This document shows positions 4,848 to 59,640 of a stretch of 64,000 nt of DNA, one piece after another. Below the pieces are notes generated by a model, which did not search any database, was not told where the DNA came from, and saw only the letters and a program-made list of their open reading frames with translations. The stretch lies in the IMG/VR virus record IMGVR_UViG_3300016667_000726, positions 18,083 to 82,082 of that record; one strand, 5' to 3'. Numbering within the stretch: position 1 is the stretch's first letter; each line of letters opens with the position of its first letter. Origin of the DNA: a virus. A program made the translations under genes and the position numbers.

Positions 4848-5090
4848 ATGTTCAGAGGTAGAGACCCTGTGGCTCTGTTTAGCTTGGCGGCAGAGCAGGA
4901 CAACATCAACGGCACCAATGGACTCCTAGACGGGGTCCTGGCTCGCAAGGCAGAGATGGCTCGGCGCACTGAGGAGCAGATCAAGACGCTGCTTGTCAGC
5001 CCGTCAACTGGCCGCGTTCGCAACCTTGGCCCTACGGCCGAGGAAGCGTCGTCGATGCTATCGACCCTTCGGAGCAGCGGAGTCGTCTGA
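4848..5090 (+). CDS. Hypothetical protein (80 aa, helical)
   Basis: GGAGG Shine-Dalgarno just upstream of ATG; fills the gap between the hub gene and the sigma gene. Confidence 0.6.
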   Translation: MFRGRDPVALFSLAAEQDNINGTNGLLDGVLARKAEMARRTEEQIKTLLVSPSTGRVRNLGPTAEEASSMLSTLRSSGVV

Positions 5091-5091
5091 C

Positions 5092-6036
5092 ATGGGAACG
5101 GGGCTACTGCGAGACTTCCTCAGCCTTCAGAAGGAGGCAGCGCGGAAGAAGAAATCAGTGCTCCCGGAAATCCCGGGAGTCATCGCCCCTATGGCTATTC
5201 CCCCAATGGCTATGCCCTCGGTCCCTACTCCGCCCTCCCCACCCGCCACCTTTAGTTTCCCAGAGGCATGGAAGATCCCCACGGATCCTCGACGCCAGCA
5301 AGAACTTCATATGTGGAAGGAGTGGAAGGAGTCTGGCGAGCACCCTGACAAGCTCCAGCCGCTGCTTACGTCGCTACAGCCTCTGATCTCGAAGCAAGTG
5401 CGCGTCTTTGCTCGTACGCCTATTCCGGTTCCGGTAATTGAGGCTGAGGCGACTAAGCACACAATCGAGGCGCTCCGGAAGTATGACCCAGTTCCCAAGG
5501 CGGGTAAGCAGGGAACTCAGATTCATAGCTGGGTGACCGGTCAGCTCAAGGGGATGAACCGGTACATCTACTCGAACCAGAACTTCCGAAGGATTACCGA
5601 GGAGAGGTCGCAGCTCGTTGGCGACTACCAGCGCGCGTCCGCACACCTGAACGAGGAGTTGGGCCGTGCACCAACCTACACGGAGATCTCGGACTATATG
5701 AACGAGATGCCGGAGAGGGTTGACCGCTCGCGAGGGATCACCTCAAAGCAGATCAAGCTCCTAAGTCAGGAGCTGACTCCCGATCTGCTAGCCTCCGCAG
5801 AGATGGCTGATCCGTTTGTGCAGGAGACCCCACAAGAGCGAGAGCTAATGAAGCTCATCGTCTACGATCTTTCGCCAGATGAGCTCAGGGTGTTCGAGTA
5901 CATCCGAGGCATCAATGGCAAGACGAAGATCTCCAGCACAGGGCAGATTGCTAAGCTCTTGGGGTGGAGCGCGTCTAAGGTCTCGCAGGTCAAGAACAAG
6001 ATCGCCAAGAAGCTAGACGGGTACCTAAAGACATGA
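5092..6036 (+). CDS. Sigma-70-family RNA polymerase sigma factor (divergent) with Pro-rich N-terminal extension
   Basis: Region 2-like (LQPLISKQVRVF...EALRKYDP), region 3 (LNEELGRAPTYTEISDYM) and region 4 HTH (LSPDELRVFEYIRG...GQIAKLLGWSASKVSQVKNKI). ATG 5092 directly after the upstream stop is preferred to the TTG at 4993. Confidence 0.8.
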   Translation: MGTGLLRDFLSLQKEAARKKKSVLPEIPGVIAPMAIPPMAMPSVPTPPSPPATFSFPEAWKIPTDPRRQQELHMWKEWKESGEHPDKLQPLLTSLQPLISKQVRVFARTPIPVPVIEAEATKHTIEALRKYDPVPKAGKQGTQIHSWVTGQLKGMNRYIYSNQNFRRITEERSQLVGDYQRASAHLNEELGRAPTYTEISDYMNEMPERVDRSRGITSKQIKLLSQELTPDLLASAEMADPFVQETPQERELMKLIVYDLSPDELRVFEYIRGINGKTKISSTGQIAKLLGWSASKVSQVKNKIAKKLDGYLKT

Positions 6037-26900: not shown

Positions 26901-29763
26901 TGAGCCTCCGGACTCGACGCTATTCTCCCATGCCCACGACGGCGTACTCGACATCTCTGGCATGCTCAATCAGCCTCTTGGGGCGTTGATTGGATGCAAG
27001 GTCTCGATCACCAGCGGAGCAAACTCCGGGGATGATTACCGCATCTCGGCAGTCGACGAGACGGTGCAGAAAGCTGCGCTCAACGGTCCCACCCCGATTG
27101 CGGCCTCGTACACCGCAGACCTCGTGGTTTACGGAGCTCGGTGGAGAGAGTCACATCTCGATATTGGAGATTGGACTCAGGTAGGGTCAATTTGGGCAAG
27201 AGGAGACGCATCTGCGGTTTCCATCCTAACCTCCGGGTACTGGACTACGGAGCAATGGACCGAGACGCAGGTTGCGGACAATCCTCTCCAGTTCATCGAC
27301 GTAGACGTAGGGACTGGGATCTGGGCAGCGGGAGTTTCCTCAGGCACAGGCACCATCTCTGCGGTCTCCGGCCTCTCCGTTACAGGTAGCGGCACGCTCT
27401 TCCTATCTGAGGTCAACGTTGGGGACTTCATTAAGGTTAGCGCCAACGGTAACGCGGCCTGGACACGAGTTGCGTCGATCAGCAGCAATACCTCGCTCAC
27501 CCTCTGTACCGCTTACCCCTTTGGCGGTTCCTCTGGCGCGTATAGCATCTGCACGAACCCCGGAGTTCAGCCGGACATGCCCGGTCTCCTTGGGGGCGCC
27601 CCTCTACCGATGGGGAACTTCTGGGGCGTAGGTCGCTCCAATGGAACTCCGACCGCAGTCCTCGCTGGTGACCCACTTGCATGGGCAGAGGAGTGGCAGG
27701 AATCCTACGAGGAGCCCCGCGCGCCGGTGCCCAACGCAGCAGCGCTTGTAGGTACGGGTACCACATACCTCACGAGGACGTCGCTGTACCTTGCAGGCGC
27801 GGCGTCTCTCAGCACAGCAGGGTACCGAGGAAGCTTGGCGGTGGACGGTATCGTCCTTACCCAGATCGCCCAAGATGACCCCGCGATGTACATCGTATCG
27901 ACGGTGTCTCCATTGATGGGTGGGAGCCTCGTATTCACTCCCGCTAATGGATCTCCGGGCGACTCTACCACGTTCCGTATTACGTTCCGCGGCCTTCATG
28001 GGGTCTCACGCGACGCGCTCAAGTTGACTGTGCGGTCCATCCTGTGGCGCCCCAGCGCGATGGCTACGGACTGCTCTGTAACTGCGCGGCTAGTTCTGTC
28101 CACCGGGCAGGTCATTGCTTCATCTACGCCCTACCTCCTTAGCCCCAGCACCAACCCGGAGCAGGTGACCTTCTCGTTCACCGAGGATGCGTTCGTTGAG
28201 ATCTCGTCGGATGAGTTCTACCAGCGGCAGGCAGAGTCCAACTCCTTTGCGGTCTGTGTTGCGCTTGAGATCGATTCATTCCTGGCGGGAGATGAGCTCT
28301 ACATTGGAAAGTTTGAGGTCATCGACGAGGTTCTTCCTCTACGTCAGTACGGCCCCCAAGAGGTTGTGGGTGTTCACCGTGCGGCCGAGTACCGTCTACT
28401 AAGTCAGCAAAGGGCTTACCTCATGGTAGGCGCAGCTAGGGCCAGCCTACTAAACTCTGACGAGTATGGCCTTCTTGAGATGAGCACAAATTCGTTCAAC
28501 AACGCAGCACGATTTGTTGAGGGCAATGGAGTTGGGCTAATTAGGGCACATGACGGCGCCCTAAATAGAATGCTCCGGCCTGCCTTCCATACATCAGAAT
28601 TTTTCAAGAAGGGGGCGTCCGGGTCAGTAATTACGGCGTATCACCCATACTTTGACCCGTTGTGGTACTACTACGCGTCAGGATTGAGGTCTGCGCCCAA
28701 CCTAACGATCGCAGAGGCCAACGATCACGCAGACATCCCTAATCCTGGAGATCCGGCTGGGTATGACGATTACCGATCTACGTTTGTCCCTCCCGGAAGA
28801 ACTGGATTTATTCTCCCCCTAGAGAATTTGCCGCAGGGGGCAGTTCTATCCGACCTGTCCTTTGTCCTAGGCTTTCAGCCGTCCTTTGTGGAGGACACCT
28901 CTGCTCCCGGGACGATACACTCAAACTTCCAGGTCTGGCGTAGGTGGAGCCCTGTACAGGATCTAGGACTCCTAGGCATCACGAATATCGCAAGGACCGA
29001 CCACGAAAAGGGCATCAAGTCAGATTGGGATGCAGATGAGGGCTACATCGTACGAGTCTGGCGCCGCCAAGTGTTTGATATGGGCAGCGACCTACCATTC
29101 CCCCAGGTTCCGCCTGCGTACGCGAATACTAAGGCAAACCTACTAAATAGACAACCGGGAGAGGTTGGTGGTCCGGATTACGCTCAGATGCCAGAGACCG
29201 GCTGGGCCGAGGTCATTTGGCAAAAGGAGTACGATCTTTCCGGGGTTACGGAGCCTACCCCAGCTGACTACTCTCTCGACATCAAGGTGAGCAGCAGTAG
29301 TTCGAATAATACGAGGACCGAGTTCTTCTCAAATGAGTATCTTGATAGGAGGACCGCAAACCTCCTACAGGACAACGACGTAGAGGGACCAGAGACATTC
29401 CAGTCCGAGGTCGCGAGAGCATCTAAGCTGAGGATCGATAACTCTCAGTTTGAGTACTTCGTTACGATTGAGTTCTGGATTGGATGCCGTGTAGTAGATT
29501 CCTCAGGCACGTGGGGCATGGAGTACACGTACTACAGTACCCTCGAGGACGTCGGTACCGTAGATGTGAGGAAGTACGATGGTTCCACCGGTCCTAGTGT
29601 CTACGGAATTACAAACCGAGCTTATAGATCGAAGTCTGCTTCCCCAACGGTCTCCTGGATCGAGGTTGAAGACGGCCCTGCTGTTCAGACCCCAGTCCCT
29701 CCCAAGGTTAGATTCCGAGGACTTCGCGTAGGCTACCTCACCGACCGTCCCGGTAGGACATAG
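23953..29763 (+). CDS. Giant tail fibre/receptor-binding-like protein (1936 aa)
   Basis: Last gene of the tail operon; beta-rich and Gly/Ser/Thr-rich; contains a VTGSGTLF...GDFIKV...SISSNTSLTL module shared with the 1639-aa protein. Confidence 0.55.
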   Translation: MTFRRTPTQRGNTDVPVVAIPRIVGTARRNSLGDLPISPDAELCIETDTMGGVPVSVILTSANMTAVVSTINTSLGANGLAEDVDGCLAISTLTAGQGAFVRILPAAVLTTSDAAPDLGFFLYPHPQAEVQAGTIESSEVRPDSQANSAGTTMLPVAADRLSRNFNRALAMMGRNADFSHTQLTNPVALPTVIPVDLTDPAWVGRTAYIAATPITEINLSALTRGEAGLPGDPLADAGRVWVGSLTQNSSLDEISKYFKIVDENDNEVVDSVTQRVVRVALVTRGSAGPGFVAGTTDWSAPVNPQADTAATTPDGLGVLGVDLVKQTSLAIGEVLGDRSTVHVPGATFVSNGVVPGDKAVISGCLITSPKTLDGTYIVEQVVGEEYLILRPSDPSDDGDLTPSTAPSPGNIVVSSGGQFQDNIWITLYPPLNAPVQHSSCNFKIILGLERSVGQIQEETDSLLRAAVRAAPEVDGFVMRDIVRQFNFGGVYDGQAPRSARGAGGFGNFTRPAVLNLKGVDVPHFSGGSFGSGDVDGVYLISTGALDFTEDLIGHFFGLSGVPGFPDYGICLAVELDGNRRLKLLRLDDNFGEPIGTASGINFIYQMDIFPEFPAAMIARSVRTPSLDRSGGFVALHEHTDTGLTSNDQLAKYGIASIEQLVSDNVPGNMLGLLGILHAPDEIELSFDPADNAAIFGPENAALAADVQDQHSTLVRIVGGPDVGWYRVRKVLSAAAGSSYDGVQLVNLDGSAVTLSALISPVSVAFYNIIFASDVPYGVDTTRRSAIRAFVNWFQTLETAQDGVVSVSWRGGDANSAGIKIKPNDLEGVVDSSGGGAQGWGVYTIVGAPLSGGSRIEAYDNTLGAWWTYSKNTVDVPDITGLPSAGLGHFGSVTGQIGQSTALTFRSTLWLGRSISPGSTTWDNSALVVNTTAAAGWVAYAPYFDATSSPYGTGSYEEYDAPTRLGHPAVLYPASAGATESAPVEPPDSTLFSHAHDGVLDISGMLNQPLGALIGCKVSITSGANSGDDYRISAVDETVQKAALNGPTPIAASYTADLVVYGARWRESHLDIGDWTQVGSIWARGDASAVSILTSGYWTTEQWTETQVADNPLQFIDVDVGTGIWAAGVSSGTGTISAVSGLSVTGSGTLFLSEVNVGDFIKVSANGNAAWTRVASISSNTSLTLCTAYPFGGSSGAYSICTNPGVQPDMPGLLGGAPLPMGNFWGVGRSNGTPTAVLAGDPLAWAEEWQESYEEPRAPVPNAAALVGTGTTYLTRTSLYLAGAASLSTAGYRGSLAVDGIVLTQIAQDDPAMYIVSTVSPLMGGSLVFTPANGSPGDSTTFRITFRGLHGVSRDALKLTVRSILWRPSAMATDCSVTARLVLSTGQVIASSTPYLLSPSTNPEQVTFSFTEDAFVEISSDEFYQRQAESNSFAVCVALEIDSFLAGDELYIGKFEVIDEVLPLRQYGPQEVVGVHRAAEYRLLSQQRAYLMVGAARASLLNSDEYGLLEMSTNSFNNAARFVEGNGVGLIRAHDGALNRMLRPAFHTSEFFKKGASGSVITAYHPYFDPLWYYYASGLRSAPNLTIAEANDHADIPNPGDPAGYDDYRSTFVPPGRTGFILPLENLPQGAVLSDLSFVLGFQPSFVEDTSAPGTIHSNFQVWRRWSPVQDLGLLGITNIARTDHEKGIKSDWDADEGYIVRVWRRQVFDMGSDLPFPQVPPAYANTKANLLNRQPGEVGGPDYAQMPETGWAEVIWQKEYDLSGVTEPTPADYSLDIKVSSSSSNNTRTEFFSNEYLDRRTANLLQDNDVEGPETFQSEVARASKLRIDNSQFEYFVTIEFWIGCRVVDSSGTWGMEYTYYSTLEDVGTVDVRKYDGSTGPSVYGITNRAYRSKSASPTVSWIEVEDGPAVQTPVPPKVRFRGLRVGYLTDRPGRT

Positions 29764-48934: not shown

Positions 48935-49836
48935 TCCACCCAGCCATCGTTGCAGCAGCCCGGATCGGGGTTGAGAAGCAGGCCGCATCTCTTGGAGAGT
49001 TGGCTGCCAGGGGAGGAGCTGCAATTGGCACTGCCCTCGGTGGACGTACTGTGGACGTAGCTCGATTTGCGCCGGCTGCACTAGGCGCCCTTGGTGGGGC
49101 CTATGTCGGCTCAATGCGCCCGGATGTTGGTGGAGACCAACAGCTCACCCGGGGACAGAAGATTCGGGGAGCACTGGCCGGAGGGCTAGCAGGCGCAGGC
49201 CTGGCGCAAATGACGGGGCTCGGTAGTACGATGGCGGCAGGGTTGGCAGATCGAGCGAGGAGAACGGGCCTCCACGGAGATCAGGCCATTGTCGAGGCGA
49301 TGCGGAATATGGGGAGGAGCGCAGGTAAGTCCGTCGCATCGATTCCGGGACGGGTTGGCCAAAGCATTGCTGGTGCTGGAAGGACGGTAGCGGATACGGT
49401 CATGAATCCCGTTCGCTCCGCCAAGGACATCGTGAGCGGAGGTGCCAGTCCGATCTACCGGGCCGTTACACAACCTGGCACGGTGGGTCAGCACCTCATG
49501 AGAGAGGCCACGAATCCTGTTGGCGCTGTGTTCCTGGGACTGTCGGGGCTCGACGCGGCTAGGAATATGGCTATGACTGAGGACCCAATGACCGGGCGTC
49601 GTCGTGGTTTTGGTGAGCGCGCACTAGGCTCCGCTGCCACACTGGGAACTGGCCTAGCGTATGGGGCACATGGCGCCACTGCTCCAGGTAATGCCCTGAC
49701 TAGGTTCATCGGTCAGACTGCTGGCTCAATTGCGGCCAGGGAAGGGGCCTCAGCGCTCGGTAGGCAGCTGGATAAGCTAAGGCCTTCCCAACCGCAGCCG
49801 CTGTCTAGTCAAGGCCAAGAAGAGGGTCCCGCATGA
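48931..49836 (+). CDS. Glycine-zipper-rich putative membrane-active virion protein
   Basis: ATG 48931 (ATGA coupling); EKQAAS, then several GxxxG tracts. Confidence 0.45.
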   Translation: MIHPAIVAAARIGVEKQAASLGELAARGGAAIGTALGGRTVDVARFAPAALGALGGAYVGSMRPDVGGDQQLTRGQKIRGALAGGLAGAGLAQMTGLGSTMAAGLADRARRTGLHGDQAIVEAMRNMGRSAGKSVASIPGRVGQSIAGAGRTVADTVMNPVRSAKDIVSGGASPIYRAVTQPGTVGQHLMREATNPVGAVFLGLSGLDAARNMAMTEDPMTGRRRGFGERALGSAATLGTGLAYGAHGATAPGNALTRFIGQTAGSIAAREGASALGRQLDKLRPSQPQPLSSQGQEEGPA

Positions 49837-51839
49837 ACGGGTTCATCTCCAGCGAGACTAACCGCTACAACCCCAGAGGTACGGAAGCGGGACGTGTAGG
49901 CCGCCAGTTTGGCCTGCGGTACCCATCCCCGTTCTTTGATGTAGCGTCGCAGTTCTTGCCGGAGAACATGACGCAGCTCCTTCAGTGGTGCCGCTACTAC
50001 TTTCTCACGAACCCCATCATTAACGTCGCTGTGTCGAAACTGGCCGAGTACCCGGTTACGCCGCTAGTCTTTGAGTCTCCAGATGAGACGATGCGGCAGA
50101 ACTACAAGACGCTTGAGTCTACGCTCCGCCTTCGTTCCTTCCAGATTGGGATTGGCCTAGATTACTTTGCGTATGGCAACGCGTTCGCCTCTGTCTACAC
50201 CCCATTTGAGCGCTGGCTAAAGTGCAGGGGTTGCGGGCGTCGTCATCTCGCCCGTGAGAACCGCTCCAGGTACACCTGGAAGAACTTTGAATTCCTGCTG
50301 CGCTGCTCAAAGTGCAGCCATCATGGTGCGGCAGATGTGGTGGACACCGCGATCCGCAGTGTTCGCGACATCAAGCTCGTCAGGTGGAACCCCGAAAACA
50401 TCAGCGTTCGGTACAACGAGGCAACGGGTAAGTCTCGGTACTACTACCGAATTCCCAAGAGCATTCGTAACGACGTCACGCTCGGGGACCTTGACACGAT
50501 CGAGGCTCTGCCGATGGACTTCATCCGCGCGGTGCAGGAGAAGCAGCAGCTCCTCTTTCACCCGGACGGGATGTACCATCTCAAGCGCGAAGGTCTTGCC
50601 CAGGCGGACCAGGGCTGGGGTACCCCGCTTATCTACCCACTCCTCAAGGACGCGTTCTACCTCCAGATCATGAAGAAGGCCCAAGAGGCGCTCTTGATGG
50701 AGCATGTCGTCCCGATGAGGGTCATGTTCCCTAGCAACCAGGGTATGCCTGAAGGCATCTTCGACAACCTGAACCTGGGCACCTGGCGTAGCCGCATCGA
50801 GACCGAAGTCAATATGTGGCGTCGCGACCCCAACTACATCCCGATCTTGCCGATCCCGCTTGGGTTCCAGCAGATGGGTGGCGATGCTCGTGCCCTGATC
50901 CTGCATCAAGAGTTCCGGCTACACTCTGAGCAGATGTTGGCGGGTGCGGGTATCCCCGTTGAGTTTGTCTTCGGCGGACTACAGTGGAGCGGAACCAACA
51001 CGTCGCTCCGCGCCCTTGAGAACATGTTCCTCGGCTACAACAAGCAGCGCGAGGAGCTCGTCGTTGATTTCGTCTTGGGCAAGATTGCCGACTTTATGGG
51101 TTGGCCCCGCATCAAGGCTAAGTTCGACAGGTTCAAGATGGCGGACGATCTACAGCGCGCCATGTTCATGTTCCAGCTTAACCAGGCCAACAAGATCTCT
51201 GACCGTAAGCTCCATGAGGAGCTCGGCACGGACTTTGATGTTGAGACTCGCCGGATCAAGGATGAGCTCGGTCAGCAGCTTGAGGCGCAGCGGCGCTCGC
51301 AGGTTGCTGCTGCCGACATCCAGGGTGAGGCGTCTCTCCACACTGGCAGGTACCAAGCCAGAGCTGCCGCAATTCAGCAGCGGGTTCAGATGGAAACCCA
51401 GATGGAGATGCAGGCCCTTCAGCAGCAACAGGCCGGAGGACAGCCTCCCCAGCAACAAGAGGCCCCCGCAGGACCAGAAAACAATCCTCAGGCGCCTAGC
51501 CCCGATGAGGGAGCGACCACAGAGCCCAAGGCTAGGCCATCTGAGATTCCAGTCGCGCTTTCGGGCATGACATCCCCGCTCCAGCAGGGAGCCGGTGGCA
51601 TGGATTTGCTCATGGTCGCTAAGAAGGCGGCGGCCTACATGCGCCAAGTCCGAGAGGCCGCAGGCGAACAGTCGATGTACCAAGAGCTACAGCGTCTACA
51701 GCTACAGGATGCCAACCTGTACAAGATCGTGGTTCAGCTCCTAAATGACTCTGGATCGAAGGAGAAGCCTTTGGATGGGGCAGCTAATCCTCGTCCGGCC
51801 GGTACTTCGCAGAAGGATGTTAGCCGTACTACTGGCTAA
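49833..51839 (+). CDS. Putative portal protein with inserted zinc ribbon
   Basis: 668 aa. Portal-like layout (NPIINVAVSKLAEYP; VRWNPENISV; MYHLKR...WGTPLIYPL; EQMLAGAGIPVEF), a CRGC...CSKC insert and a Q/P-rich tail. Confidence 0.55.
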   Translation: MNGFISSETNRYNPRGTEAGRVGRQFGLRYPSPFFDVASQFLPENMTQLLQWCRYYFLTNPIINVAVSKLAEYPVTPLVFESPDETMRQNYKTLESTLRLRSFQIGIGLDYFAYGNAFASVYTPFERWLKCRGCGRRHLARENRSRYTWKNFEFLLRCSKCSHHGAADVVDTAIRSVRDIKLVRWNPENISVRYNEATGKSRYYYRIPKSIRNDVTLGDLDTIEALPMDFIRAVQEKQQLLFHPDGMYHLKREGLAQADQGWGTPLIYPLLKDAFYLQIMKKAQEALLMEHVVPMRVMFPSNQGMPEGIFDNLNLGTWRSRIETEVNMWRRDPNYIPILPIPLGFQQMGGDARALILHQEFRLHSEQMLAGAGIPVEFVFGGLQWSGTNTSLRALENMFLGYNKQREELVVDFVLGKIADFMGWPRIKAKFDRFKMADDLQRAMFMFQLNQANKISDRKLHEELGTDFDVETRRIKDELGQQLEAQRRSQVAAADIQGEASLHTGRYQARAAAIQQRVQMETQMEMQALQQQQAGGQPPQQQEAPAGPENNPQAPSPDEGATTEPKARPSEIPVALSGMTSPLQQGAGGMDLLMVAKKAAAYMRQVREAAGEQSMYQELQRLQLQDANLYKIVVQLLNDSGSKEKPLDGAANPRPAGTSQKDVSRTTG

Positions 51840-51849
51840 GGAAGACGCC

Positions 51850-52170
51850 CTAGTCTTGGACTAGGAGCGTCAAGACGATGGAGCGCTCCCCGCAGAAGGA
51901 GCACTCCCCGTCTTTCCAATAGGGCCTACGGCTCCACGAGCCGAGATTGCGAGAGCAGGAACTGCAAGCCCATGCCCTAGCGATCTCTCCCAAGTCCTCC
52001 TCAAGCGCTTTACAGGCGCCACAGTCGACTAGGGAACATCGGCGCTGAATTACCGGGCAGTAGGCCAGCTTCTGGGGCAGCTCATGATCAGGTGACCTAG
52101 TAGGTAGAGGAGCAGGCTCTCCAAGACCATTGGCCTTGGATAGGGCTCGTTCTAATCTCCTAGTGTCCAC
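51850..52170 (-). CDS. Cys-rich zinc-finger protein (antisense)
   Basis: CP...C...CGAC...CSSC...CSFC; fills the gap between the portal and RNAP genes. Confidence 0.55.
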   Translation of the reverse strand: MDTRRLERALSKANGLGEPAPLPTRSPDHELPQKLAYCPVIQRRCSLVDCGACKALEEDLGEIARAWACSSCSRNLGSWSRRPYWKDGECSFCGERSIVLTLLVQD

Positions 52171-52321: not shown

Positions 52322-52396
52322 GATGGTACTCCCATGGCGGGGCGAGATATGCTACCTCCGCCATAGTACTTATGACCGAATCATGCTGAGGGATTG
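52322..52396. promoter_or_regulatory. Divergent promoter region upstream of RNAP
   Basis: ATGGCGG/CCGCCAT inverted repeat (52334-52364) around TATGCT, plus CTTATGACCGAATCATGCTGAGGG. Confidence 0.35.
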
Positions 52397-55300
52397 ATGG
52401 CCAACCTGCTCAACCCAGTCCAGGCGTTCGAAACTCTCAAGCAGCGGGTAGTCGAGGCATTTAGGGCTCACTTCCCGATCGAGGGTCAGCAGAATCGTCT
52501 TGAGCTGGTCGACATCTCCGTCGAAGACTCAAACGACCCAGGCTCTCCCTACCACATTGATAATATCAAGGCGCAGGAAGAGGCCAAGCTGAGCGGCGGG
52601 TCGTGGGACATCCCGGTCAAGGGCAGGATGCGGCTGGTCCGTAAGTCAGACGGGAAGGTGTTGGACGAGTCTAGGATCACGCTTGCCAAGATTCCCAAGA
52701 TCACGAGCCGCTACAGCTACATCGTGGAGGGCAATGAGCGCCAGCATGACGGGGTGTTTCGTCTACGCTCGCGTCCGTACCACTTTACGGCTGACAATGG
52801 AGTGATCAAGGCTCAGTGGAACATGGCCAAGGGTCTCGGCTTTGACCTGTTCATCGCCGACCGTAAGACCGGGTTCATCAAGATGAACATCGGTACCTCC
52901 AACTTGCCGGTGTACTCTGTGCTCAACGCGCTCGGCGTAAGTGACGAGGAGATGCGTCAGTCGTGGGGGTCTGAGACTTTTGAGGCGAACAAGAAGAAGG
53001 CAAAGCCTGACGACCTTCTCAAGATCACCAAGCTTATCAAGCGTCCTAAGAAGGGGGAGCCCGCTCCTACGGCGGCCTCTGCCAGAGCAGACGTAGCCAA
53101 CTACTTCACGACTCAGACTAAGCTTCGCCCTGACGCGATGTACTCGGCGTTTGGGATCAAGGACGATCATGTCAATGGGCAGAACCTGCTCATGTCGGCA
53201 ACACGCATCCTAGGCATTAGCCGAGGTACGACTGGAGAGGATGATCGTCAGTCCTTGGCTGCGAAGGACCTCACCAGCACTGAGGACTTCATCGCTGAGG
53301 CCATCACCAATCGATCCAGGGACATTGAGAAGAACATTCGAGAGAACGTCGACCGTAAGACCCGGGTTGCGGACGTCATCTCGAACTACCCCTACACCAA
53401 GATCATCCGCCAGACGTTCACCAACGCACAGCGTCCGGAGCAGACCAACCCTCTTACGTTCGTTTCCGGGTACCTCCGCACTACGATTCGTGGTGCCGAC
53501 TTCGGCGGTATCAAGGGTGAGCAGGTCAACCTCGACCGCGACCAGCAGATCAATCCATCCCACCTGGGATTCCTAGATGCGGTCCAAACTCCTGAGGGCA
53601 CAGAGACGGGTATTGCGCTCCATCTTCCCCTGGGCGTGAAGAAGGTCGATAAGGAGCTCAAGACCACAGTCTGGGATGTCAAGGCCGGAAAGAGTGTCGA
53701 CGTCACTCCTGCTGAGATGGAACGCGCAGTCGTAGCGTACCCAGATCAGGTCGAATGGAGGGGCGGAAAGCCGGTTCCTCGTGAGCCCATCGTTACGGTC
53801 TACGACAATGACCGCTCAACGACTCGCCGTCCGTGGGCAGACGTCCAGTACGTGCTGCCGTCAGCCAAGGCTACCCTTAGCTTCTCCGCCAATCTTGTGC
53901 CGTTCCTACAGAACAACAACGGCAACCGAGCCATGATGGCGGCGAAGCAACAGGAGCAGGCTGTCTCCCTCAAGTATCGTGAGGCCCCGCTAGTTCAGGC
54001 CAAGACTGATGGAGCGTTGACGTTTGATGAGTTGCTCGGGACCGTGTCCTCCCACCGAGCACCCGTAGACGGAGTAGTTGAGTCCGTCTCCGCAGATGAG
54101 ATCGTCATTCGTAGCGCAGATGGCAAGCGAGTCCCTGTCAGTATCTACAACCACTTCCCGCTCAATGGCGGGAAGACGATGCTGCATGCCGATCCCGTCG
54201 TCAAGAAGGGAGACCAAGTAAAGAAGCACCAGCTCATCGCAGACACGAACTACACAAAGGACGGCCGACTAGCTCTGGGGACCAACATTCGAGTTGCTTA
54301 CATTCCATACGAGGGACGTAACTTTGAAGATGGCATTGTCGTCTCCGAGAGCGCAGCAAAGAAGTTGACCTCCTCGCATCTGCATGAGGAGAGCCTCTTC
54401 CTGTACGAGGGCATGCAGGTCAACCGTAATCGGTGGAAGGACTACACAATCCCTGAGCGGTCTAGAGCGGACAGACTAGCAAAGCTGGATGAGAATGGCG
54501 TCGTGAAGGTCGGAGAGAAGGTCCGCCATGGCGATATCCTCGTCGCGGCGATTGCTCCTCAGCGGACGCTGTCTCAAGACCAACTCGACATGGCCTCGAT
54601 CCGCAAGTCTCTCGTTCGTGGATTTAGGGATTCCGCCCTGAGCTGGGAACACGACCACGAGGGTACCGTTGCTAAGGTTGTGCGCGCGAACAACAAGATC
54701 ACCGTCTTTGTGCGCACAGATGAGCCCCTAATCGTTGGCGATAAGCTCTCTGGCCGCCACGGGAACAAGGGGATCGTCTCTAGGATCATTCCCGATCATG
54801 AGATGCCGCACGACAAGGCAGGCAACCCAGTACAGATCCTGCTCAATGTAGCGGGCGTACCTAGCCGTATGAATGTGGGTCAGGCGCTTGAAACAGCTGC
54901 GTCGAAGATCGCCAAGAAGACCGGACAGACCTACGTCACCGAAAACTTCCAACCCGGCGTGGACTACACCCAGACAGTCCTCAACGACCTAAAGAAGCAC
55001 AACCTGAGTGACACTGAGGAGCTTACGGATCCAAAGACTGGGCGGTCACTAGGCCCAATCATGGTCGGCGATCAGTACATCATCAAGCTTCACCAGCAGG
55101 TGGAGAAGAAGATGACTGCCCGCTCCTATGGGGATCGCTACTCAGCCGTCTCAGGAGCTCCTCCAAAGGGGTCCGGGATCCCAGGTGGCGGACAGAAGCT
55201 CGATCAGCTGACGACCTACGCACTTCTGGCACATGGTGCTGTACACAACCTCAGGGAGGCGCAGACATACAAGTCTGACGTAGACCAAGAGGATGTATGG

Positions 55301-58300
55301 GATGCGCTGATTACGGGCAGGTCTGTTCCAGCTCCGCAGCCTAGCAAGGCTCTGGGCAACTTCCTCTCGTATGTGAAGGCCATGGGCATCCACGTCGGTA
55401 AGGAGGGAGACTCCTACGTTCTCTCCCCGATGACCGATAAGCAGTCTCTCGCCATCTCTAATGGCGAGATCAAGATGCCAAGCAAGACCCTAGCCGCCCG
55501 TGGACTTAGGACGATCGAGGAGGCCGGCGGCCTTTTCGACCCCAAGGTAACTGGCGCAAGGTTCACGGAGAACGGGGTTGAGGGCAAGTTCTGGGGACAC
55601 ATCAACCTAGCAACGAGAGTACCCAACCCGATGTTTGAGACCCCGATCACGATGATCCTAGGTCTCAAGGAGCAGGAGTTTGATGATCTCGTAGGCCCCA
55701 AGCTCATCAATGGTAGATCGGGGTTCGACATCCTTAATGAGCGCTTGGCCGCAGTGAACGTGCCTAAGGAGCTTGCTGAGGCGGAGGCATCGCTATCAAA
55801 GTTGTCTGGGCCTGCGCTAGCCCGTGCGTACCGCAAGGTCCGTTACCTAAGGGCACTGGCAAAGCTCAACATCAGCCCGCTAGATGCGTACACGAACAAG
55901 GTATTGCCGGTCATTCCGCCCGCGCTGCGTCAGGTCAAGCTGGACCCGACCGGTAAGCTCACCTTCGACGACCTCAACGCTATCTACCGAGTAGTTGGTC
56001 AGGTCAACGAGCAGTTGAAGGAAATGGATAAGGCAACTCCGCAGGAGACAATGCAGAAGTCCCGCTCGTTCCTATACGACGCTATTCGTGGCCTTCGAGT
56101 CTCCGGTATGGACCTTGGAGCTACCAAGAGTCAGCGTCACCACGAAGGACTGATGGAGAAGATGAGGGGCAGAAACCCCAAGTCCTCGTTCTTCCAGGAC
56201 TTCGTTGTAGGTCGGCGTCAGGACCTCTCGGGAAGATCTACGATCATCCCCGAGCCCGATATGGGCCTAGACGAGATTGGCATCCCAGTTCCAATTGCGA
56301 TGGAGATGTACAAGCCCTTCGTGATCCGGGAGCTGTCGAACTCATTGGGCGTGACCCCTGCTAGGGCGTGGCAGCTGTTCAAGACGAAGGATCCCACCGC
56401 TCGGCGTGCACTTGAGCGTGTCATCCAGCGCCGCCCTGTCATGGCAAAGCGGGATCCGGCTCTGCACCGGTTCTCAATCATGGCGTTCCAGCCCAGGCTT
56501 ATTTCTGGTAAGGCAATTGCCATCCACCCACTGATCACCGGAGGGTTCAACGCAGACTTCGATGGCGACACGATGGGCCTGTACGTCCCCGTGCACCAGA
56601 CTGCGGTGGACGAAGCCTTCAAGCTACTCCCGTCTCAGAATCTATTCTCGCCAACCCATGGCGGCCTGATGAACATTCCGAGTCAGGACTCCCTGCTTGG
56701 ACTGTTCCAGGCAACCGCATGGGGCAAGGATATCGGAAAGACGTACACGAAGGACGACGCAATCCGACTAGCTAAGGCTGGCACTATCAAGGCGACGGAT
56801 GTCATTACCGTGGACGGCAAGAAGACCACGGGAGGACGCCTCTGGCTTGCCTCGTGCCTCCCACTCGCCATGCGCGGGGATGAGCGCCTCCTCTACAACT
56901 CCTCCTTCCGTCTCGACAAGAAGGGGTTGAAGGACATGTTGACGCGAGTAGCCAAGGATTTCCAAAAGGACTTTGCCCAGACAGTCAACGACTGGAAGGA
57001 CATCGGCAACAAGCTCTCGTTCCTTCATGGGTCCTCGTTTAGCTTGCGGGACTTCCACGACGGTAAGGAGCTTCGCGAGGAGATCCTTGCTCCCTTCAAG
57101 AAGCAAGAGGCGGCCATCTACTCATCACGCCTGCCGAAGAAGGAGAAGGACGCCCAGATCGTACAGCTATACGAGCAGGCAAGCACCCTCCTTAAGCAGA
57201 GAGGGGAAGCCCGCTACAATCAGGGCGACAACCGGATCTACGAGTGGAAGGCATCTGGCGGACGCGGCAACTGGGAGCAGTTCTCTCAGCTCGTCATGGG
57301 CGCCATGCTCGTCAAGGATCCTACTAACGAGTACGTGCCGGTCCCCATCACCAAGTCATTCGGTGAGGGGCTGCCGTTCAGTCAGTACTGGGCATCTCTG
57401 CACGGAGCACGTAAGGGCACCCTAGATAGAGCATCAGGTACGGCCGAACCCGGCGCCCTCACGAAGGAGATCATCAATACGATGATCGACCACAAGATCT
57501 CCATGGACGACTGCGGCACAACCCAGGGCGTTGCCATGGATCCAAAGAACTCCGATGCTCTGGGAAGATACCTGGCTCCGGACCTCACCCTGAAGTCGGG
57601 CGAGGTTCTTCGGGCGGGAACTCTGATCGACAGCGCAGTCAGGGCAAAGATTGTGAATGCAGGTATGGACAAGGTGATTGTCCGCTCCCCTCTGCGTTGT
57701 CGGGCAGCCTCGGGTGTCTGTGCCAAGTGCTTTGGCCTAAATGAGAACGATAAGCTCCACCCCGTTGGTACGAACATCGGAGTCATCGCCGGACACGCTC
57801 TGGGAGAGCCGGTCATCCAGCTCACCATGCGTACCTTCCATACGGGCGGCGTAGGCGGTGGCGGCGTTGTCGACGCGTTTGCCAGAGTCAAGCAGCTCTT
57901 CAGCGTTCCTCAGAAGCTCAAGGGGCAGGCAACCTTGGCGACAGCTGAGGGTTCCATCACGCGTGTTGTGGCCAATCGAGAGCAAGGCGGGCACGACGTG
58001 TTTATCCGCGACTCAAAGGGAGTTGAGAAGGGGCACTACGTTCCGGCGGAACTTCAGCTGTTGCCAGGCACGACAGTAGGCGCGTCCGTCAAGCGAGGCG
58101 ATCCTCTCTCAACCGGACCTCGTAATCCTAATGAGATTCTCAAGCTCACGGGGAACATGAACGCAGTCCGCAGCTATCTCGTAGATGAGACAGACCAGGC
58201 GTACGGCGGACTCACCAAGCGAAGGAATATTGAGGCGGTTGTACGTGCGGCTACGAATCTAGCTCGTGTTGAGGCGGCTCCTGGGCACCCAGAATACCTG

Positions 58301-58624
58301 CGTGGTCAACATGTCCCCCTCAATGAGCTCGAGGATGTGAATCGTCGTGCTGCTGCGCAAGGAGTGCCGCTTGTCCTCTACACTCCAATCCTCAAGCCTA
58401 TGCAGCAAATGCCGACTGAGGGACGTGAGGACTGGATGGGTCGCCTGAACTTCCAGCGCCTCGAGAACACCTTCCGCGAGGGTGCTGCTCAGGGATGGGC
58501 ATCGGACATCCATGGTTCTACGATTGCAGGTATGGCACATGGTGCCCAGTTCGGGCTGCCTAAGGCTCCACCGCCATTCAGCGCTGCGGCCTTTGGCGCC
58601 CCTTCCTCTGGAGTTCGTAGATGA
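52397..58624 (+). CDS. rpoBC: Single-chain DNA-directed RNA polymerase, fused beta-beta'
   Basis: Beta motifs QTPEG, NRAMMA, NFEDGI, GDKLSGRHGNKG, PSRMNVGQ; beta' motifs GHINL, LPVIPP, GRRQDLSGRS, RDPALHR, NADFDGD (56549-56569), HGARKG, CRAASGVCAKCFG, GEPVIQLTMRTFHTGG. Confidence 0.95.
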   Translation: MANLLNPVQAFETLKQRVVEAFRAHFPIEGQQNRLELVDISVEDSNDPGSPYHIDNIKAQEEAKLSGGSWDIPVKGRMRLVRKSDGKVLDESRITLAKIPKITSRYSYIVEGNERQHDGVFRLRSRPYHFTADNGVIKAQWNMAKGLGFDLFIADRKTGFIKMNIGTSNLPVYSVLNALGVSDEEMRQSWGSETFEANKKKAKPDDLLKITKLIKRPKKGEPAPTAASARADVANYFTTQTKLRPDAMYSAFGIKDDHVNGQNLLMSATRILGISRGTTGEDDRQSLAAKDLTSTEDFIAEAITNRSRDIEKNIRENVDRKTRVADVISNYPYTKIIRQTFTNAQRPEQTNPLTFVSGYLRTTIRGADFGGIKGEQVNLDRDQQINPSHLGFLDAVQTPEGTETGIALHLPLGVKKVDKELKTTVWDVKAGKSVDVTPAEMERAVVAYPDQVEWRGGKPVPREPIVTVYDNDRSTTRRPWADVQYVLPSAKATLSFSANLVPFLQNNNGNRAMMAAKQQEQAVSLKYREAPLVQAKTDGALTFDELLGTVSSHRAPVDGVVESVSADEIVIRSADGKRVPVSIYNHFPLNGGKTMLHADPVVKKGDQVKKHQLIADTNYTKDGRLALGTNIRVAYIPYEGRNFEDGIVVSESAAKKLTSSHLHEESLFLYEGMQVNRNRWKDYTIPERSRADRLAKLDENGVVKVGEKVRHGDILVAAIAPQRTLSQDQLDMASIRKSLVRGFRDSALSWEHDHEGTVAKVVRANNKITVFVRTDEPLIVGDKLSGRHGNKGIVSRIIPDHEMPHDKAGNPVQILLNVAGVPSRMNVGQALETAASKIAKKTGQTYVTENFQPGVDYTQTVLNDLKKHNLSDTEELTDPKTGRSLGPIMVGDQYIIKLHQQVEKKMTARSYGDRYSAVSGAPPKGSGIPGGGQKLDQLTTYALLAHGAVHNLREAQTYKSDVDQEDVWDALITGRSVPAPQPSKALGNFLSYVKAMGIHVGKEGDSYVLSPMTDKQSLAISNGEIKMPSKTLAARGLRTIEEAGGLFDPKVTGARFTENGVEGKFWGHINLATRVPNPMFETPITMILGLKEQEFDDLVGPKLINGRSGFDILNERLAAVNVPKELAEAEASLSKLSGPALARAYRKVRYLRALAKLNISPLDAYTNKVLPVIPPALRQVKLDPTGKLTFDDLNAIYRVVGQVNEQLKEMDKATPQETMQKSRSFLYDAIRGLRVSGMDLGATKSQRHHEGLMEKMRGRNPKSSFFQDFVVGRRQDLSGRSTIIPEPDMGLDEIGIPVPIAMEMYKPFVIRELSNSLGVTPARAWQLFKTKDPTARRALERVIQRRPVMAKRDPALHRFSIMAFQPRLISGKAIAIHPLITGGFNADFDGDTMGLYVPVHQTAVDEAFKLLPSQNLFSPTHGGLMNIPSQDSLLGLFQATAWGKDIGKTYTKDDAIRLAKAGTIKATDVITVDGKKTTGGRLWLASCLPLAMRGDERLLYNSSFRLDKKGLKDMLTRVAKDFQKDFAQTVNDWKDIGNKLSFLHGSSFSLRDFHDGKELREEILAPFKKQEAAIYSSRLPKKEKDAQIVQLYEQASTLLKQRGEARYNQGDNRIYEWKASGGRGNWEQFSQLVMGAMLVKDPTNEYVPVPITKSFGEGLPFSQYWASLHGARKGTLDRASGTAEPGALTKEIINTMIDHKISMDDCGTTQGVAMDPKNSDALGRYLAPDLTLKSGEVLRAGTLIDSAVRAKIVNAGMDKVIVRSPLRCRAASGVCAKCFGLNENDKLHPVGTNIGVIAGHALGEPVIQLTMRTFHTGGVGGGGVVDAFARVKQLFSVPQKLKGQATLATAEGSITRVVANREQGGHDVFIRDSKGVEKGHYVPAELQLLPGTTVGASVKRGDPLSTGPRNPNEILKLTGNMNAVRSYLVDETDQAYGGLTKRRNIEAVVRAATNLARVEAAPGHPEYLRGQHVPLNELEDVNRRAAAQGVPLVLYTPILKPMQQMPTEGREDWMGRLNFQRLENTFREGAAQGWASDIHGSTIAGMAHGAQFGLPKAPPPFSAAAFGAPSSGVRR

Positions 58625-59640
58625 TCTTTGAGCCTGCGCCGCCAAAGCCATCTAAGAATGCTGAGAGGCCCGGCTCATCGGCAGGCAACGTCGTTAAGGG
58701 CGTGGCCACCGATGGCCTTAAGACGGCAGTGATCCAACGTGGGTTCATTGTTGGGGTGAGTCCCGACAAGTGGTCCATGACAGTCCAGACCATCTATGGG
58801 CGTAGAAGGATTGTGGATTGCTCAATCCCTAGCCTCTATGCTCATAGAAATAGAGGAGAGGGAATCCACTTCATCCCAGAGGTGGGGGCAGACGTATGGC
58901 TTTGCTTTCCCTCTGAGGACTCCCGGCCGTTCCCAATCTGCTACATGCCACCTCCCGGACAGGATGGAAGCTCAAAGGCCAACCGTCCAAACTTGACTCC
59001 AGGCTCCTACGCGATGCTCACGCGCGACGGAAATGGGATCAAGATCCACAGGGGCGGACTCGTAGAGATCGAGGCGACTCCCATCTGTAAGATGCTCTTT
59101 CTCCCACGAGAGGATGCAATCGTAACTCTCGCCCAGGAGTGGAGGCTGGAGACGCCTGTCGGCAGGATGCACTTCTACGCTGGTGAGCCAGGAGAGCTTC
59201 CTAATGATCAGCTAGCTGGGAGGTTCCTTGCCCAGTTTAAGCAAGAGGTAAATCAGAAGCACCACGCCGTTGACCTCTCTATTGGATCTGAGGTTGGGGT
59301 TGATGGTGTATTCCAGCTCGACATCTACGAGAGTGGGGACGTAGAGACTGAGGCACAGCGAACCAAGAAGCTCCAAGTCGTTGGCCAGAGCGACGGGGAT
59401 ATGCTGGTTGGGGTCGCGCAAGGAAAGGCTCTTCAAGTAGGCTCACTAACGGGTACGACACGATATCCAGTAGTCGTCAACGACTCGTTCTTTAGCGACG
59501 TGGCTGCTGCCTTCACCGAGGTAAAAGCGGTTCTGTCTGCGTTGGGGCTTCCAACAACCAACATCGACACGCTACTCGTCAACCTGCTGTTGCCCACAGA
59601 GAGCAATCCCTATCTATCGCAGTATTTGAAGGCAGAATAA
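58621..59640 (+). CDS. gpV/gp5-like baseplate spike protein (N-terminal OB fold)
   Basis: VQTIYG...[16 protein letters not shown]...PICY pattern resembles the gpV/VgrG OB-fold; ATGA coupling to RNAP. Confidence 0.55.

What the first reader, a model, noticed from the sequence alone, without database searches (positions are those of the whole stretch)
52397..58624. Compact single-chain bacterial-type beta-beta' RNA polymerase lacking the beta' zinc ribbon, embedded in virion genes
Seen: one 2076-aa ORF carries all beta then beta' motifs, joined by a linker of about 6 aa (YVKAMGIHV-GKEGDS-YVLSPMT, about 55370-55435). Where bacterial beta' has its N-terminal C4 zinc ribbon (between GLF and GHI), this protein has GLFDPKVTGARFTENGVEGKFWGHI with no Cys. 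The second zinc site and trigger loop are intact. No alpha or omega gene is seen in the window. It lies between the putative portal and a translationally coupled spike gene. Known: fused rpoBC occurs in some bacteria (e.g. Helicobacter, Wolbachia), and phage lineages with cell-like multisubunit RNAPs have been reported. Inference: an alpha-independent, possibly virion-packaged RNAP with altered promoter and terminator handling.
Basis: partly seen in the sequence, partly recalled or inferred. Interest (0 to 1): 0.8.

Follow-up and report, generated by a model that had tools for sequence, protein, structure and literature searches.

The report
Single-chain phage RNA polymerase, beta-beta' fused
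A phage gene next to the portal gene encodes the two large subunits of a bacterial-type RNA polymerase as one 2075-residue chain without the usual N-terminal zinc finger; it belongs to a very large, mostly uncultured phage family whose cultured cousins carry the enzyme and a sigma factor in the virus particle.

Summary
Window 52397-58624 (+) is one 2075-aa ORF with Pfam beta domains followed by beta' domains. The beta C-terminus runs straight into beta'. The beta' N-terminal Zn ribbon is deleted: the chain has 5 Cys, none before residue 1487. NADFDGD, the second Zn site, the bridge helix and the trigger loop are canonical.

It is not a one-off.
- All 150 best 50%-identity cluster representatives are this family, nearly all fused.
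- More than 100 IMG/VR loci share the layout, and none has the Zn ribbon.
- Cultured Salmonella phage Arash and Vibrio phage D69 show the same junction, the same deletion and the same portal-RNAP order, but cut beta' after the catalytic barrel.
- In a beta' tree all of these form one clade apart from bacteria (support 100).

Published Arash virion proteomics found this protein with the most spectra, plus a sigma factor. The window has a homologous sigma, also present in 5/5 related genomes. No alpha or omega gene is found here or in three complete relatives, each of which has a single RNAP gene.

My reading is a sigma-dependent, alpha/omega-less single-chain phage RNAP, probably packaged in the virion. 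It is a new variant of a known kind (mReC/Arash-like phage RNAPs). I found no paper that describes the fusion or the zinc-finger loss.

The parts
52369..52376 (+). CTTATGAC promoter-like motif, 20 nt before the RNAP start codon
   Evidence: The same 8-mer class lies 20-28 nt before the RNAP start in 10 of 17 related loci. In the own genome 7 of 12 copies are intergenic, although intergenic DNA is 2.2% of the genome (P 1.6e-9).
52388..52392 (+). GAGGG ribosome-binding site
   Evidence: Read directly from the sequence.
52397..58624 (+). Fused beta-beta' RNA polymerase gene, 2075 aa
   Evidence: PDB beta' hits reach E 1e-110.
52397..55414 (+). beta module (residues 1-1006), including the GRHGNKG active-site lysine motif at 54752-54772 and the flap-tip region at 54569-54613
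   Evidence: Pfam Rpb2_3/_6/_7; alignment to E. coli RpoB.
55397..55438 (+). beta/beta' junction (GKEGDS-YVLSPMTD), modelled as a tight beta-hairpin
   Evidence: Multiple alignment. In the AlphaFold model strands 139-144 and 147-152 form the hairpin, with pLDDT 89-97.
55415..58621 (+). beta' module (residues 1007-2075)
   Evidence: Pfam Rpb1_1/_2/_3/_5; PDB; Foldseek top hits are all bacterial beta'.
55529..55603 (+). Cys-free segment in place of the beta' N-terminal Zn ribbon
   Evidence: E. coli beta' 65-86 is deleted in all 26 family members aligned and in Arash and D69. No Zn-ribbon Cys pattern in about 100 IMG/VR loci.
55967..56095 (+). beta' clamp helices, the predicted docking site of sigma region 2
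   Evidence: Alignment. Complex prediction places the interface at residues 1188-1242.
56549..56569 (+). NADFDGD catalytic Mg site
   Evidence: the Asp residues are invariant.
57404..57484 (+). Bridge-helix region
   Evidence: Located in the sequence. It lies within the stretch that aligns to bacterial beta' and in the conserved part of the family alignment. The bridge-helix label rests on recognising the sequence from established knowledge of beta', not on a separate test here.
57506..57736 (+). Second zinc site (Cys1706, 1768, 1775, 1778)
   Evidence: Invariant in 47 sequences; alignment.
57791..57853 (+). Trigger loop (GHALGEPVIQLTMRTFHTGGV)
49833..51839 (+). Portal protein gene upstream
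   Evidence: 30% identical, E 3e-91, to the Arash gp204 portal, which was seen in virion mass spectrometry. The same position is kept in D69 and L006.
58621..59640 (+). 339-aa gene whose start overlaps the RNAP stop (ATGA); function unproven, possibly baseplate hub or spike
   Evidence: A homologue sits directly after the RNAP gene in L006 (33% identity). Pfam Phage_base_V hit is below threshold.
4993..6036 (+). Phage sigma-70-family factor, the likely partner
   Evidence: Sigma70_r3 26.6 bits; phrog_351; PDB SigA E 2.5e-3; Arash Gp10 E 3e-17; homologue in 5/5 related genomes; complex score 0.62 against control 0.00.

Best explanation
The gene encodes the complete catalytic core of a bacterial-type two-barrel RNA polymerase as one polypeptide. 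A beta module (residues 1-1006) is joined through a short structured hairpin to a beta' module (1007-2075). It belongs to a phage with a genome of roughly 180 kb.

Shown:
- The order of the modules, the junction and the intact catalytic elements.
- The clade-wide loss of the beta' N-terminal zinc ribbon.
- No recognisable alpha or omega gene, and one RNAP gene per complete related genome.
- A co-occurring phage sigma-70-family factor.
- The position of the gene in the structural gene block, directly after the portal gene.

Inferred:
- The chain folds into an active core without alpha2 or omega, the covalent link taking over the 1:1 assembly role.
- It uses the phage sigma, docked on the beta' clamp helices, to start at phage promoters.
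- As in its cultured cousin Arash, it is made late, packed into the capsid together with sigma, and ejected with the DNA to transcribe early genes independently of the host. Being the only phage RNAP, it probably also serves later in infection.
- Loss of the zinc ribbon, which is part of the RNA exit channel, should change hairpin-dependent pausing and termination and remove a docking site for host factors.
For: Architecture and motifs. A structural model of residues 860-1460 has pLDDT 86.6, an ordered junction, and bacterial beta' as its top folds.

Family-wide fusion and Zn-ribbon loss. They are shared with Arash gp206 and D69. One clade apart from bacteria has support 100.

No alpha or omega: own record and five relatives, three of them 99-100% complete, with 14/14 positive controls.

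One RNAP gene per genome.

Sigma. The predicted sigma/clamp-helix interface scores 0.62; the best of 3 controls scores 0.00. That mark was reached by 58 of 80 solved complexes and by 2 of 110 mismatched pairs. The pass may reflect memory of solved holoenzymes.

Virion link: in Arash virion mass spectrometry Gp206 gave 3516 spectra (the most), Gp216 1210 and sigma Gp10 467 (PMC10585845). The portal-RNAP order is conserved. The RNAP gene carries the same upstream motif as the structural operons.

Precedents: phiKZ and AR9 phage RNAPs work without alpha or omega, and the AR9 non-virion RNAP lacks the beta' zinc domain (PMC7618050; PMC13282480).
Against: - There are no data on this phage itself. 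Packaging is transferred from a homologue only 28-30% identical.
- The Arash particle preparation contained 116 of 272 proteins, including ribonucleotide reductases and ligases. Its authors warn that abundant non-structural proteins may be carried over.
- The own record is only about 67% complete.
- Absence of alpha and omega was tested with Pfam models only. A divergent assembly factor, or use of host alpha and omega, is not excluded.
- The sigma could instead redirect host RNAP, as proposed for RNAP-less jumbo phages.
- The complex score comes from shallow alignments of my own making.
Confidence: 0.6

Rival explanations
1. It is a phage RNAP that is not packaged. It is made during infection and works only inside the cell, for example on middle or late genes together with the phage sigma. 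Its place beside the portal gene is inherited gene order without functional meaning.
For: There is only one RNAP gene per genome, unlike phiKZ-type phages, which have separate virion and non-virion sets. The CTTATGAC motif precedes structural operons that this enzyme might itself transcribe. The Arash particle proteome is contaminated with many enzymes.
Against: Gp206 gave the most spectra of any protein in Arash particles, above the major capsid protein. The portal adjacency is kept across lineages sharing only about 30% identity. The gene lies in the late-looking + strand structural block and is coupled to a downstream structural-block gene.
Confidence: 0.25
2. It is a hybrid enzyme: the fused chain still needs host alpha2, and perhaps omega, to assemble and be active. 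The phage therefore depends on the host for part of its polymerase.
For: Bacterial beta/beta' is inactive without alpha2 (as cited in PMC7618050). From general knowledge, artificial and natural cellular rpoBC fusions still use alpha. The beta C-terminal conserved blocks are well kept.
Against: phiKZ and AR9 enzymes lack alpha and omega and do not bind them stably. An ejected virion enzyme would have to work before it met host alpha, or would need alpha to be packaged with it. No such gene is present.
Confidence: 0.13
3. It is cellular rpoBC on a misassembled or contaminating bacterial contig, or a very recent capture from a bacterium.
For: Identity of 28-31% to bacterial beta'. Several 'phage' database hits are really bacterial rpoB/rpoC.
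Against: The gene is flanked by portal, tail-fibre and baseplate genes. Relatives include genomes with terminal repeats. The clade is cleanly separated from bacteria. The Zn ribbon is absent, whereas the literature treats it as a shared feature of multisubunit RNAPs.
Confidence: 0.01

Closest known systems
Salmonella phage Arash gp206 + gp216 (OQ632216; PMC10585845) and Vibrio phages D69/D181/D148
   Same: The same beta-to-beta' junction and the same Zn-ribbon deletion. The portal-RNAP gene order is kept, and there is a homologous sigma and a large structural protein gene before the sigma gene at the matching place in the map. They fall in the same clade in the beta' tree. They are experimentally virion-associated.
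   Different: Only 28-30% identical. In these phages beta' is cut about 90 aa after the catalytic motif into a 1525-aa and a roughly 606-aa protein, with genes or homing endonucleases inserted between them. Their motifs are degenerate: AADYDGD, and a trigger loop ending ..TKHDAKAG, where the window keeps the canonical forms. The published paper annotates them as 'beta' and 'beta prime' and does not mention the fusion.
mReC phages (multisubunit-RNAP-encoding Caudovirales; Weinheimer & Aylward 2020, PMC7481178)
   Same: Uncultured tailed phages with cell-like beta and beta' that branch apart from cellular RNAPs. [quoted passage not shown] The data source is the same (IMG/VR).
   Different: Every mReC entry I read (the first rows and all of part 10) has separate beta (900-1563 aa) and beta' (899-1391 aa) genes, and some contigs have two sets. 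The paper discusses neither a fusion nor the zinc ribbon. I could not obtain mReC sequences, so whether the fused family lies inside or beside mReC is untested.
phiKZ / AR9-type jumbo-phage multisubunit RNAPs
   Same: Phage-encoded two-barrel RNAPs without alpha or omega. A virion-packaged form exists. The AR9 non-virion RNAP also lacks the beta' N-terminal zinc domain.
   Different: Those enzymes are split into 4-5 polypeptides, come as two paralogous sets, have no sigma-70-family factor, and are far more divergent. Here there is one chain, one set, and a sigma.
Cellular rpoBC fusions (Helicobacter, Wolbachia; artificial E. coli rpoB-rpoC fusion)
   Same: A head-to-tail beta-beta' chain is tolerated because the beta C-terminus and the beta' N-terminus lie next to each other in the enzyme (general knowledge, not tested here).
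   Different: Those fusions are cellular and, from general knowledge, keep the zinc ribbon and still use alpha2 and omega. The phage clade is phylogenetically separate from the bacteria sampled.
Single-chain two-barrel phage RNAPs (YonO, crAss-like gp66, P23-45 tape-measure-fused RNAP)
   Same: A single polypeptide with both barrels. The crAss-like and P23-45 enzymes are virion-delivered.
   Different: Those are so divergent that the COG beta/beta' profile models used in the mReC study do not detect the crAssphage enzyme. The window protein scores 230 bits on Pfam Rpb2_6 and E 1e-110 against bacterial beta', and it keeps the sigma-docking clamp helices.

Membership tests
Bacterial-type multisubunit RNAP large subunits (beta + beta') | beta domains followed by beta' domains, with both catalytic barrels (GRHGNKG lysines; NADFDGD) | tested here: met
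Bacterial-type multisubunit RNAP large subunits (beta + beta') | Bridge helix, trigger loop and the second (C-terminal) zinc site | tested here: met
Bacterial-type multisubunit RNAP large subunits (beta + beta') | [quoted passage not shown] | tested here: not met
   Deleted, with no Cys before residue 1487.
Bacterial-type multisubunit RNAP large subunits (beta + beta') | Partner subunits alpha2 and omega encoded or used | tested here: not met
   No Pfam alpha or omega hit in the own record (PF01193 and PF01192 only; PF01000 was not run on it) or in 5 relatives tested with all three models. Use of host subunits cannot be tested here.
Bacterial-type multisubunit RNAP large subunits (beta + beta') | Sigma-70-family initiation factor docking on the beta' clamp helices | tested here: inconclusive
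   A phage sigma is present and co-occurs with the RNAP. The predicted interface scores 0.62 against control 0.00. This is a prediction, not a measurement.
Arash/D69-type phage RNAP | beta fused to beta' at the same junction, with the Zn ribbon deleted | tested here: met
Arash/D69-type phage RNAP | Gene directly downstream of the portal gene; homologous sigma elsewhere in the structural block | tested here: met
Arash/D69-type phage RNAP | beta' split after the catalytic barrel into two genes | tested here: not met
   The window ORF is continuous. The split class forms its own subclade.
Arash/D69-type phage RNAP | Protein present in purified virions | not testable with these tools
   Only the Arash proteomics exist.
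mReC (PMC7481178) | Tailed-phage contig whose beta and beta' are detectable with cellular profile models and branch apart from cells | tested here: inconclusive
   Phage context and separation from bacteria are met. No mReC reference sequence could be put in the tree.
mReC (PMC7481178) | beta and beta' as separate proteins, as in every entry I read of the paper's list | tested here: not met
   Searches compared.
phiKZ/AR9-type split RNAP | beta and beta' each split into several polypeptides, two paralogous sets, no sigma | tested here: not met
   description of the type.
YonO / crAss gp66-type single-chain RNAP | Divergence so high that cellular beta/beta' profiles do not detect it | tested here: not met
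   Strong Pfam and PDB matches.

The most novel reading that the evidence does not exclude
This clade has evolved a minimal, self-sufficient cellular-type RNA polymerase: one roughly 230-kDa chain plus one sigma, with no alpha, omega or zinc ribbon. It is carried in the capsid and ejected to start infection. The covalent beta-beta' link and the trimmed RNA-exit channel would be adaptations for packaging, for passage through the tail, and for refolding without an assembly platform. That would make it the simplest known sigma-dependent RNAP and a widespread, overlooked host-independent transcription strategy in phages of about 180 kb.
Probability: 0.4. Interest if true: 0.78.

Novelty: new variant of a known kind. 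Interest (0 to 1): 0.6.

Why it matters
Cell-like RNA polymerases are thought to need an alpha dimer to assemble and to share an N-terminal zinc domain in the largest subunit. Here a very large natural family (all 150 best 50%-identity clusters, hundreds of IMG/VR contigs) keeps canonical active-site chemistry and a sigma factor but has dropped both features and welded the two big subunits together.

If the enzyme is active on its own, it would offer four things:
- A compact, genetically simple model for sigma-dependent transcription.
- A test of what alpha, omega and the zinc domain are really for.
- A possible tool for biotechnology.
- An explanation of how mid-size phages such as Arash escape dependence on host RNAP.

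Cultured cousins exist (Arash on Salmonella, D69 on Vibrio), so the questions are directly testable at the bench.

Tried and rejected
- PHROG and Pfam gave nothing for most neighbouring ORFs. A PDB sequence search gave nothing for the 339-aa downstream ORF, so the 'spike' label stays unproven.
- The Pfam Sigma70_r2 model finds nothing in the record. The sigma call rests on region 3, a weak region 4 hit, the Arash homology and PDB SigA.
- I guessed that IMG/VR contig 3300017987_000006 (L021) was an mReC contig with split genes. It is a single 2580-aa ORF, probably carrying an intein.
- mReC reference sequences could not be fetched. Scans of IMG/VR with my alignment and with Arash gp206 returned only the fused and Arash-type classes, so the relation to mReC is unresolved. 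One mReC contig in the paper's tables (3300000243..._1000001) has a 1563-aa 'beta' plus a separate Rpb1_5 gene, which resembles the Arash layout. This is not checked.
- The longer motif TACTTATGAC occurs only twice and is not enriched. Only the shorter core CTTATG(A/G/C)C, together with its position, is significant.
- Literature searches (and reviews) found no description of a fully fused, sigma-associated phage RNAP or of its zinc-ribbon loss.
- Cellular contamination was rejected on gene context and on the tree.
- Rhizobium phage TM30 beta' is unfused, keeps the zinc ribbon and groups with bacteria. It is a different lineage.
- Yersinia phage YerA41 has beta'N, beta'C and beta as separate genes. 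It lacked the motif used for the tree and was left out.


Full report
**1. The observation.**
The window is bases 18083-82082 of a linear IMG/VR virus record of 123,674 bp, estimated 67% complete. On the + strand an ORF runs from 52394 (TTG) or 52397 (ATG, preceded by GAGGG at 52388-52392) to 58624, giving 2076 or 2075 aa.

- Pfam finds Rpb2_3, Rpb2_6 (230 bits) and Rpb2_7 at residues 348-967, then Rpb1_1, Rpb1_2, Rpb1_3 and Rpb1_5 at 1168-1848.
- The beta' half matches solved bacterial beta' chains at E 1e-110, from about chain residue 164 to the C-terminus.
- I aligned it with E. coli RpoB+RpoC, taken from the annotated K-12 record. The beta C-terminal helix (..YVKAMGIHV) is followed by GKEGDS, and then directly by beta' from about E. 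coli residue 28 (YVLSPMTD..).
- E. coli beta' 65-86, which holds Cys70/72/85/88 of the zinc ribbon, has no counterpart. The chain contains only five cysteines. Four of them form the second zinc site and none lies before residue 1487.
- NADFDGD, GRHGNKG, the lid, the clamp helices, the rudder, the trigger loop and the second zinc site are all canonical.
- The other shortenings relative to E. coli are mostly lineage-specific insertions (SI1, SI2, SI3) and part of the jaw. This explains the compact 2075 aa against 1342 + 1407 aa in E. coli.

The one exception is the label 'spike' for the downstream gene, which rests on a sub-threshold hit.

**2. It is a family trait, not a singularity.**

- A word-indexed search returned more than 120 clusters of 2030-2120-aa proteins that cover 99% of the query at 42-88% identity. 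They sit on contigs of up to 217 kb. Some members are lengthened to 2400-2830 aa by inteins.
- An exhaustive HMMER search used residues 876-2075, that is the beta C-terminus plus all of beta'. All 150 best 50%-identity representatives (E <= 1e-184) belong to this family. Nearly all align from query position 1-6 at about their own residue 870, which means they are fused. Several exceed 3000 aa with 3-5 matched stretches.
- IMG/VR scans gave 29 + 80 loci, and more than 564 stretches encode a relative.
- I classified these loci with a script. The catalytic motif lies 1360-1470 residues into an ORF of at least 2000 aa in most of them.
- A second class has ORFs of about 1436-1523 aa that end about 95 aa after the motif.
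- No locus has a zinc-ribbon Cys pattern upstream of the motif.
- One close relative (L027) has beta and beta' separated exactly at the junction by a frame change with an ATGA overlap, while its near twin L022 is fused.

**3. Cultured cousins.**
The best hits among deposited phage genomes are Vibrio phages D69, D181 and D148 (187 kb; 28.5% identity over 96% of the query) and Salmonella phage Arash (181 kb).

- In both, a 1525-1527-aa CDS holds beta plus the N-terminal half of beta'. It is annotated only as 'subunit beta' or as hypothetical. A CDS of about 606 aa holds the rest, with other genes or homing endonucleases in between.
- They share the same junction and the same zinc-ribbon deletion. 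Their catalytic motifs, however, are degenerate: AADYDGD and a non-canonical trigger loop.
- The gene order portal, small gene, RNAP is the same. The window's 668-aa upstream ORF is 30% identical (E 3e-91) to the Arash portal gp204. A portal homologue also precedes the RNAP gene in D69 and in a 217-kb family member, L006.
- A maximum-likelihood tree of the beta' N-terminal half (61 rows, 481 columns) splits 17 bacteria plus Rhizobium phage TM30 from all fused, Arash-type and other split forms, with support 100. The Arash-type proteins form a subclade among the fused ones.
- TM30, which has an unfused beta', keeps its zinc ribbon.

Fusion and zinc-ribbon loss are therefore shared derived characters of one phage clade, and the later splits appear secondary.

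**4. Partners.**

- *Alpha and omega.* RNA_pol_L (alpha) and omega Pfam models find nothing in the own record. RNA_pol_L, RNA_pol_A_bac and omega models find nothing in five related IMG/VR genomes. Three of these are 99-100% complete at 178-188 kb, and one has terminal repeats. The same searches hit 14/14 control genomes.
- *A single RNAP.* Each of these genomes has one RNAP gene (own record).
- *Sigma.* Window 4993-6036 encodes a 347-aa protein. The evidence that it is a sigma factor is:
  - Sigma70_r3 above threshold.
  - A PHROG sigma hit.
  - A weak region 4 hit.
  - PDB SigA similarity over regions 2.4-4.2.
  - 26% identity (E 3e-17) to Arash Gp10.
- Homologues of this sigma occur in 5/5 related genomes.
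- *Predicted interface.* I ran a complex prediction of this sigma with beta' residues 1030-1420. It places sigma region 2 on the clamp helices (residues 1188-1242). The score is 0.62; the best of 3 controls scores 0.00. That mark was reached by 58 of 80 solved complexes and by 2 of 110 mismatched pairs. Because holoenzymes are solved many times over, this shows likeness rather than proof.

**5. Virion link.**
The Arash paper (PMC10585845) reports mass spectrometry of purified particles.

| Protein | Spectra |
|---|---|
| Gp206 (beta + beta' N-half) | 3516, the highest of all proteins |
| Gp216 (beta' C-half) | 1210 |
| Sigma Gp10 | 467 |
| Portal Gp204 | 877 |

The authors caution that abundant enzymes may be carried over, since 116 of 272 proteins were detected. 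In the window the RNAP gene lies in the + strand structural block. That block runs portal, RNAP, a 339-aa gene whose ATG overlaps the RNAP stop, then a collagen-like tail fibre gene. It is separated from the minus-strand replication block, which holds PolA, DnaB and helicases.

**6. Structure.**
An AlphaFold model of residues 860-1460, built on a 47-sequence alignment, has pLDDT 86.6 and pTM 0.79.

- The junction is an ordered beta-hairpin (pLDDT 89-97), not a floppy linker.
- The segment replacing the zinc ribbon forms short strands.
- The best structural matches are bacterial beta' and cyanobacterial gamma chains.

**7. Mechanism.**

*Shown.* The gene encodes a complete, conserved catalytic core in one chain, without the zinc ribbon. 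It comes with a co-occurring sigma and with no recognisable alpha or omega gene.

*Inferred.*
- Self-assembly without alpha.
- Sigma-directed initiation.
- Late synthesis, packaging and ejection, as in Arash.
- Use throughout infection, because it is the only phage RNAP.
- Altered hairpin-dependent pausing and termination, and altered factor docking, because the zinc ribbon lines the RNA exit channel. This last point rests on general knowledge. The only literature support read here is that the domain is called a shared feature of all multisubunit RNAPs and that it is missing from the AR9 non-virion RNAP.

**8. Comparison and novelty.**
In the rows of the mReC paper's list that I read, every entry has separate beta and beta' genes. 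The paper does not discuss a fusion or the zinc domain. Its pipeline required two proteins per contig, so fused genes may have been missed; this is my inference. Reviews of jumbo-phage RNAPs describe only split, sigma-less phiKZ/AR9 enzymes and very divergent single-chain forms. I found no paper that describes this fused, sigma-associated family.

The window's protein is one ordinary member of a large undescribed architecture within a known kind of system, so I class it as a new variant of a known kind.

Noticed in passing
window 46587, 52369, 65263, 71570 (+ strand); also genome positions outside the window: The 8-mer CTTATG(A/G/C)C lies 3-54 nt upstream of + strand gene starts. Seven of its 12 copies in the genome are intergenic, although intergenic DNA is 2.2% of the genome (P 1.6e-9). 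The same motif lies 20-28 nt before the RNAP start in 10 of 17 related loci that share only 40-60% protein identity. It is a candidate phage-specific (late?) promoter. None precedes the minus-strand replication genes.
   Followed up: partly
family members P0013-P0051, P0128-P0246; L014, L021, L062: Many RNAP genes of this family carry one to several inteins (LAGLIDADG and intein-splicing Pfam domains), reaching 2400-4739 aa. The window's copy has none. D181 and D148 have a homing endonuclease gene inside the RNAP region.
   Followed up: partly
L027:6060-6130: One relative at 52% identity has beta and beta' as two ORFs separated exactly at the fusion point by a 1-nt frame change with an ATGA overlap. 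Its near twin L022 is fused. This is either a real secondary split or an assembly error.
   Followed up: partly
window 1344-4826, 10083-15665, 18236-23155, 23953-29763: There are four very large + strand ORFs of 1160-1936 aa: a baseplate-wedge-like N-terminus in the 1860-aa protein, and tail-fibre-like segments in the 1639-aa and 1936-aa proteins. The 1160-aa protein is weakly similar to the Arash gp8 structural cell-wall hydrolase.
   Followed up: partly
G004:C1:9247-9405 (related complete genome with terminal repeats): One complete relative encodes a second, much more canonical sigma factor: a 449-aa ORF scoring 66 bits on Sigma70_r4. The window record shows no such gene in the part that is present.
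   Followed up: no
window 51850-52170 (- strand): A 106-aa minus-strand ORF sits alone between the portal and RNAP genes, inside a 223-bp-flanked divergent region. In L006, three small minus-strand genes occupy the same place.
   Followed up: no
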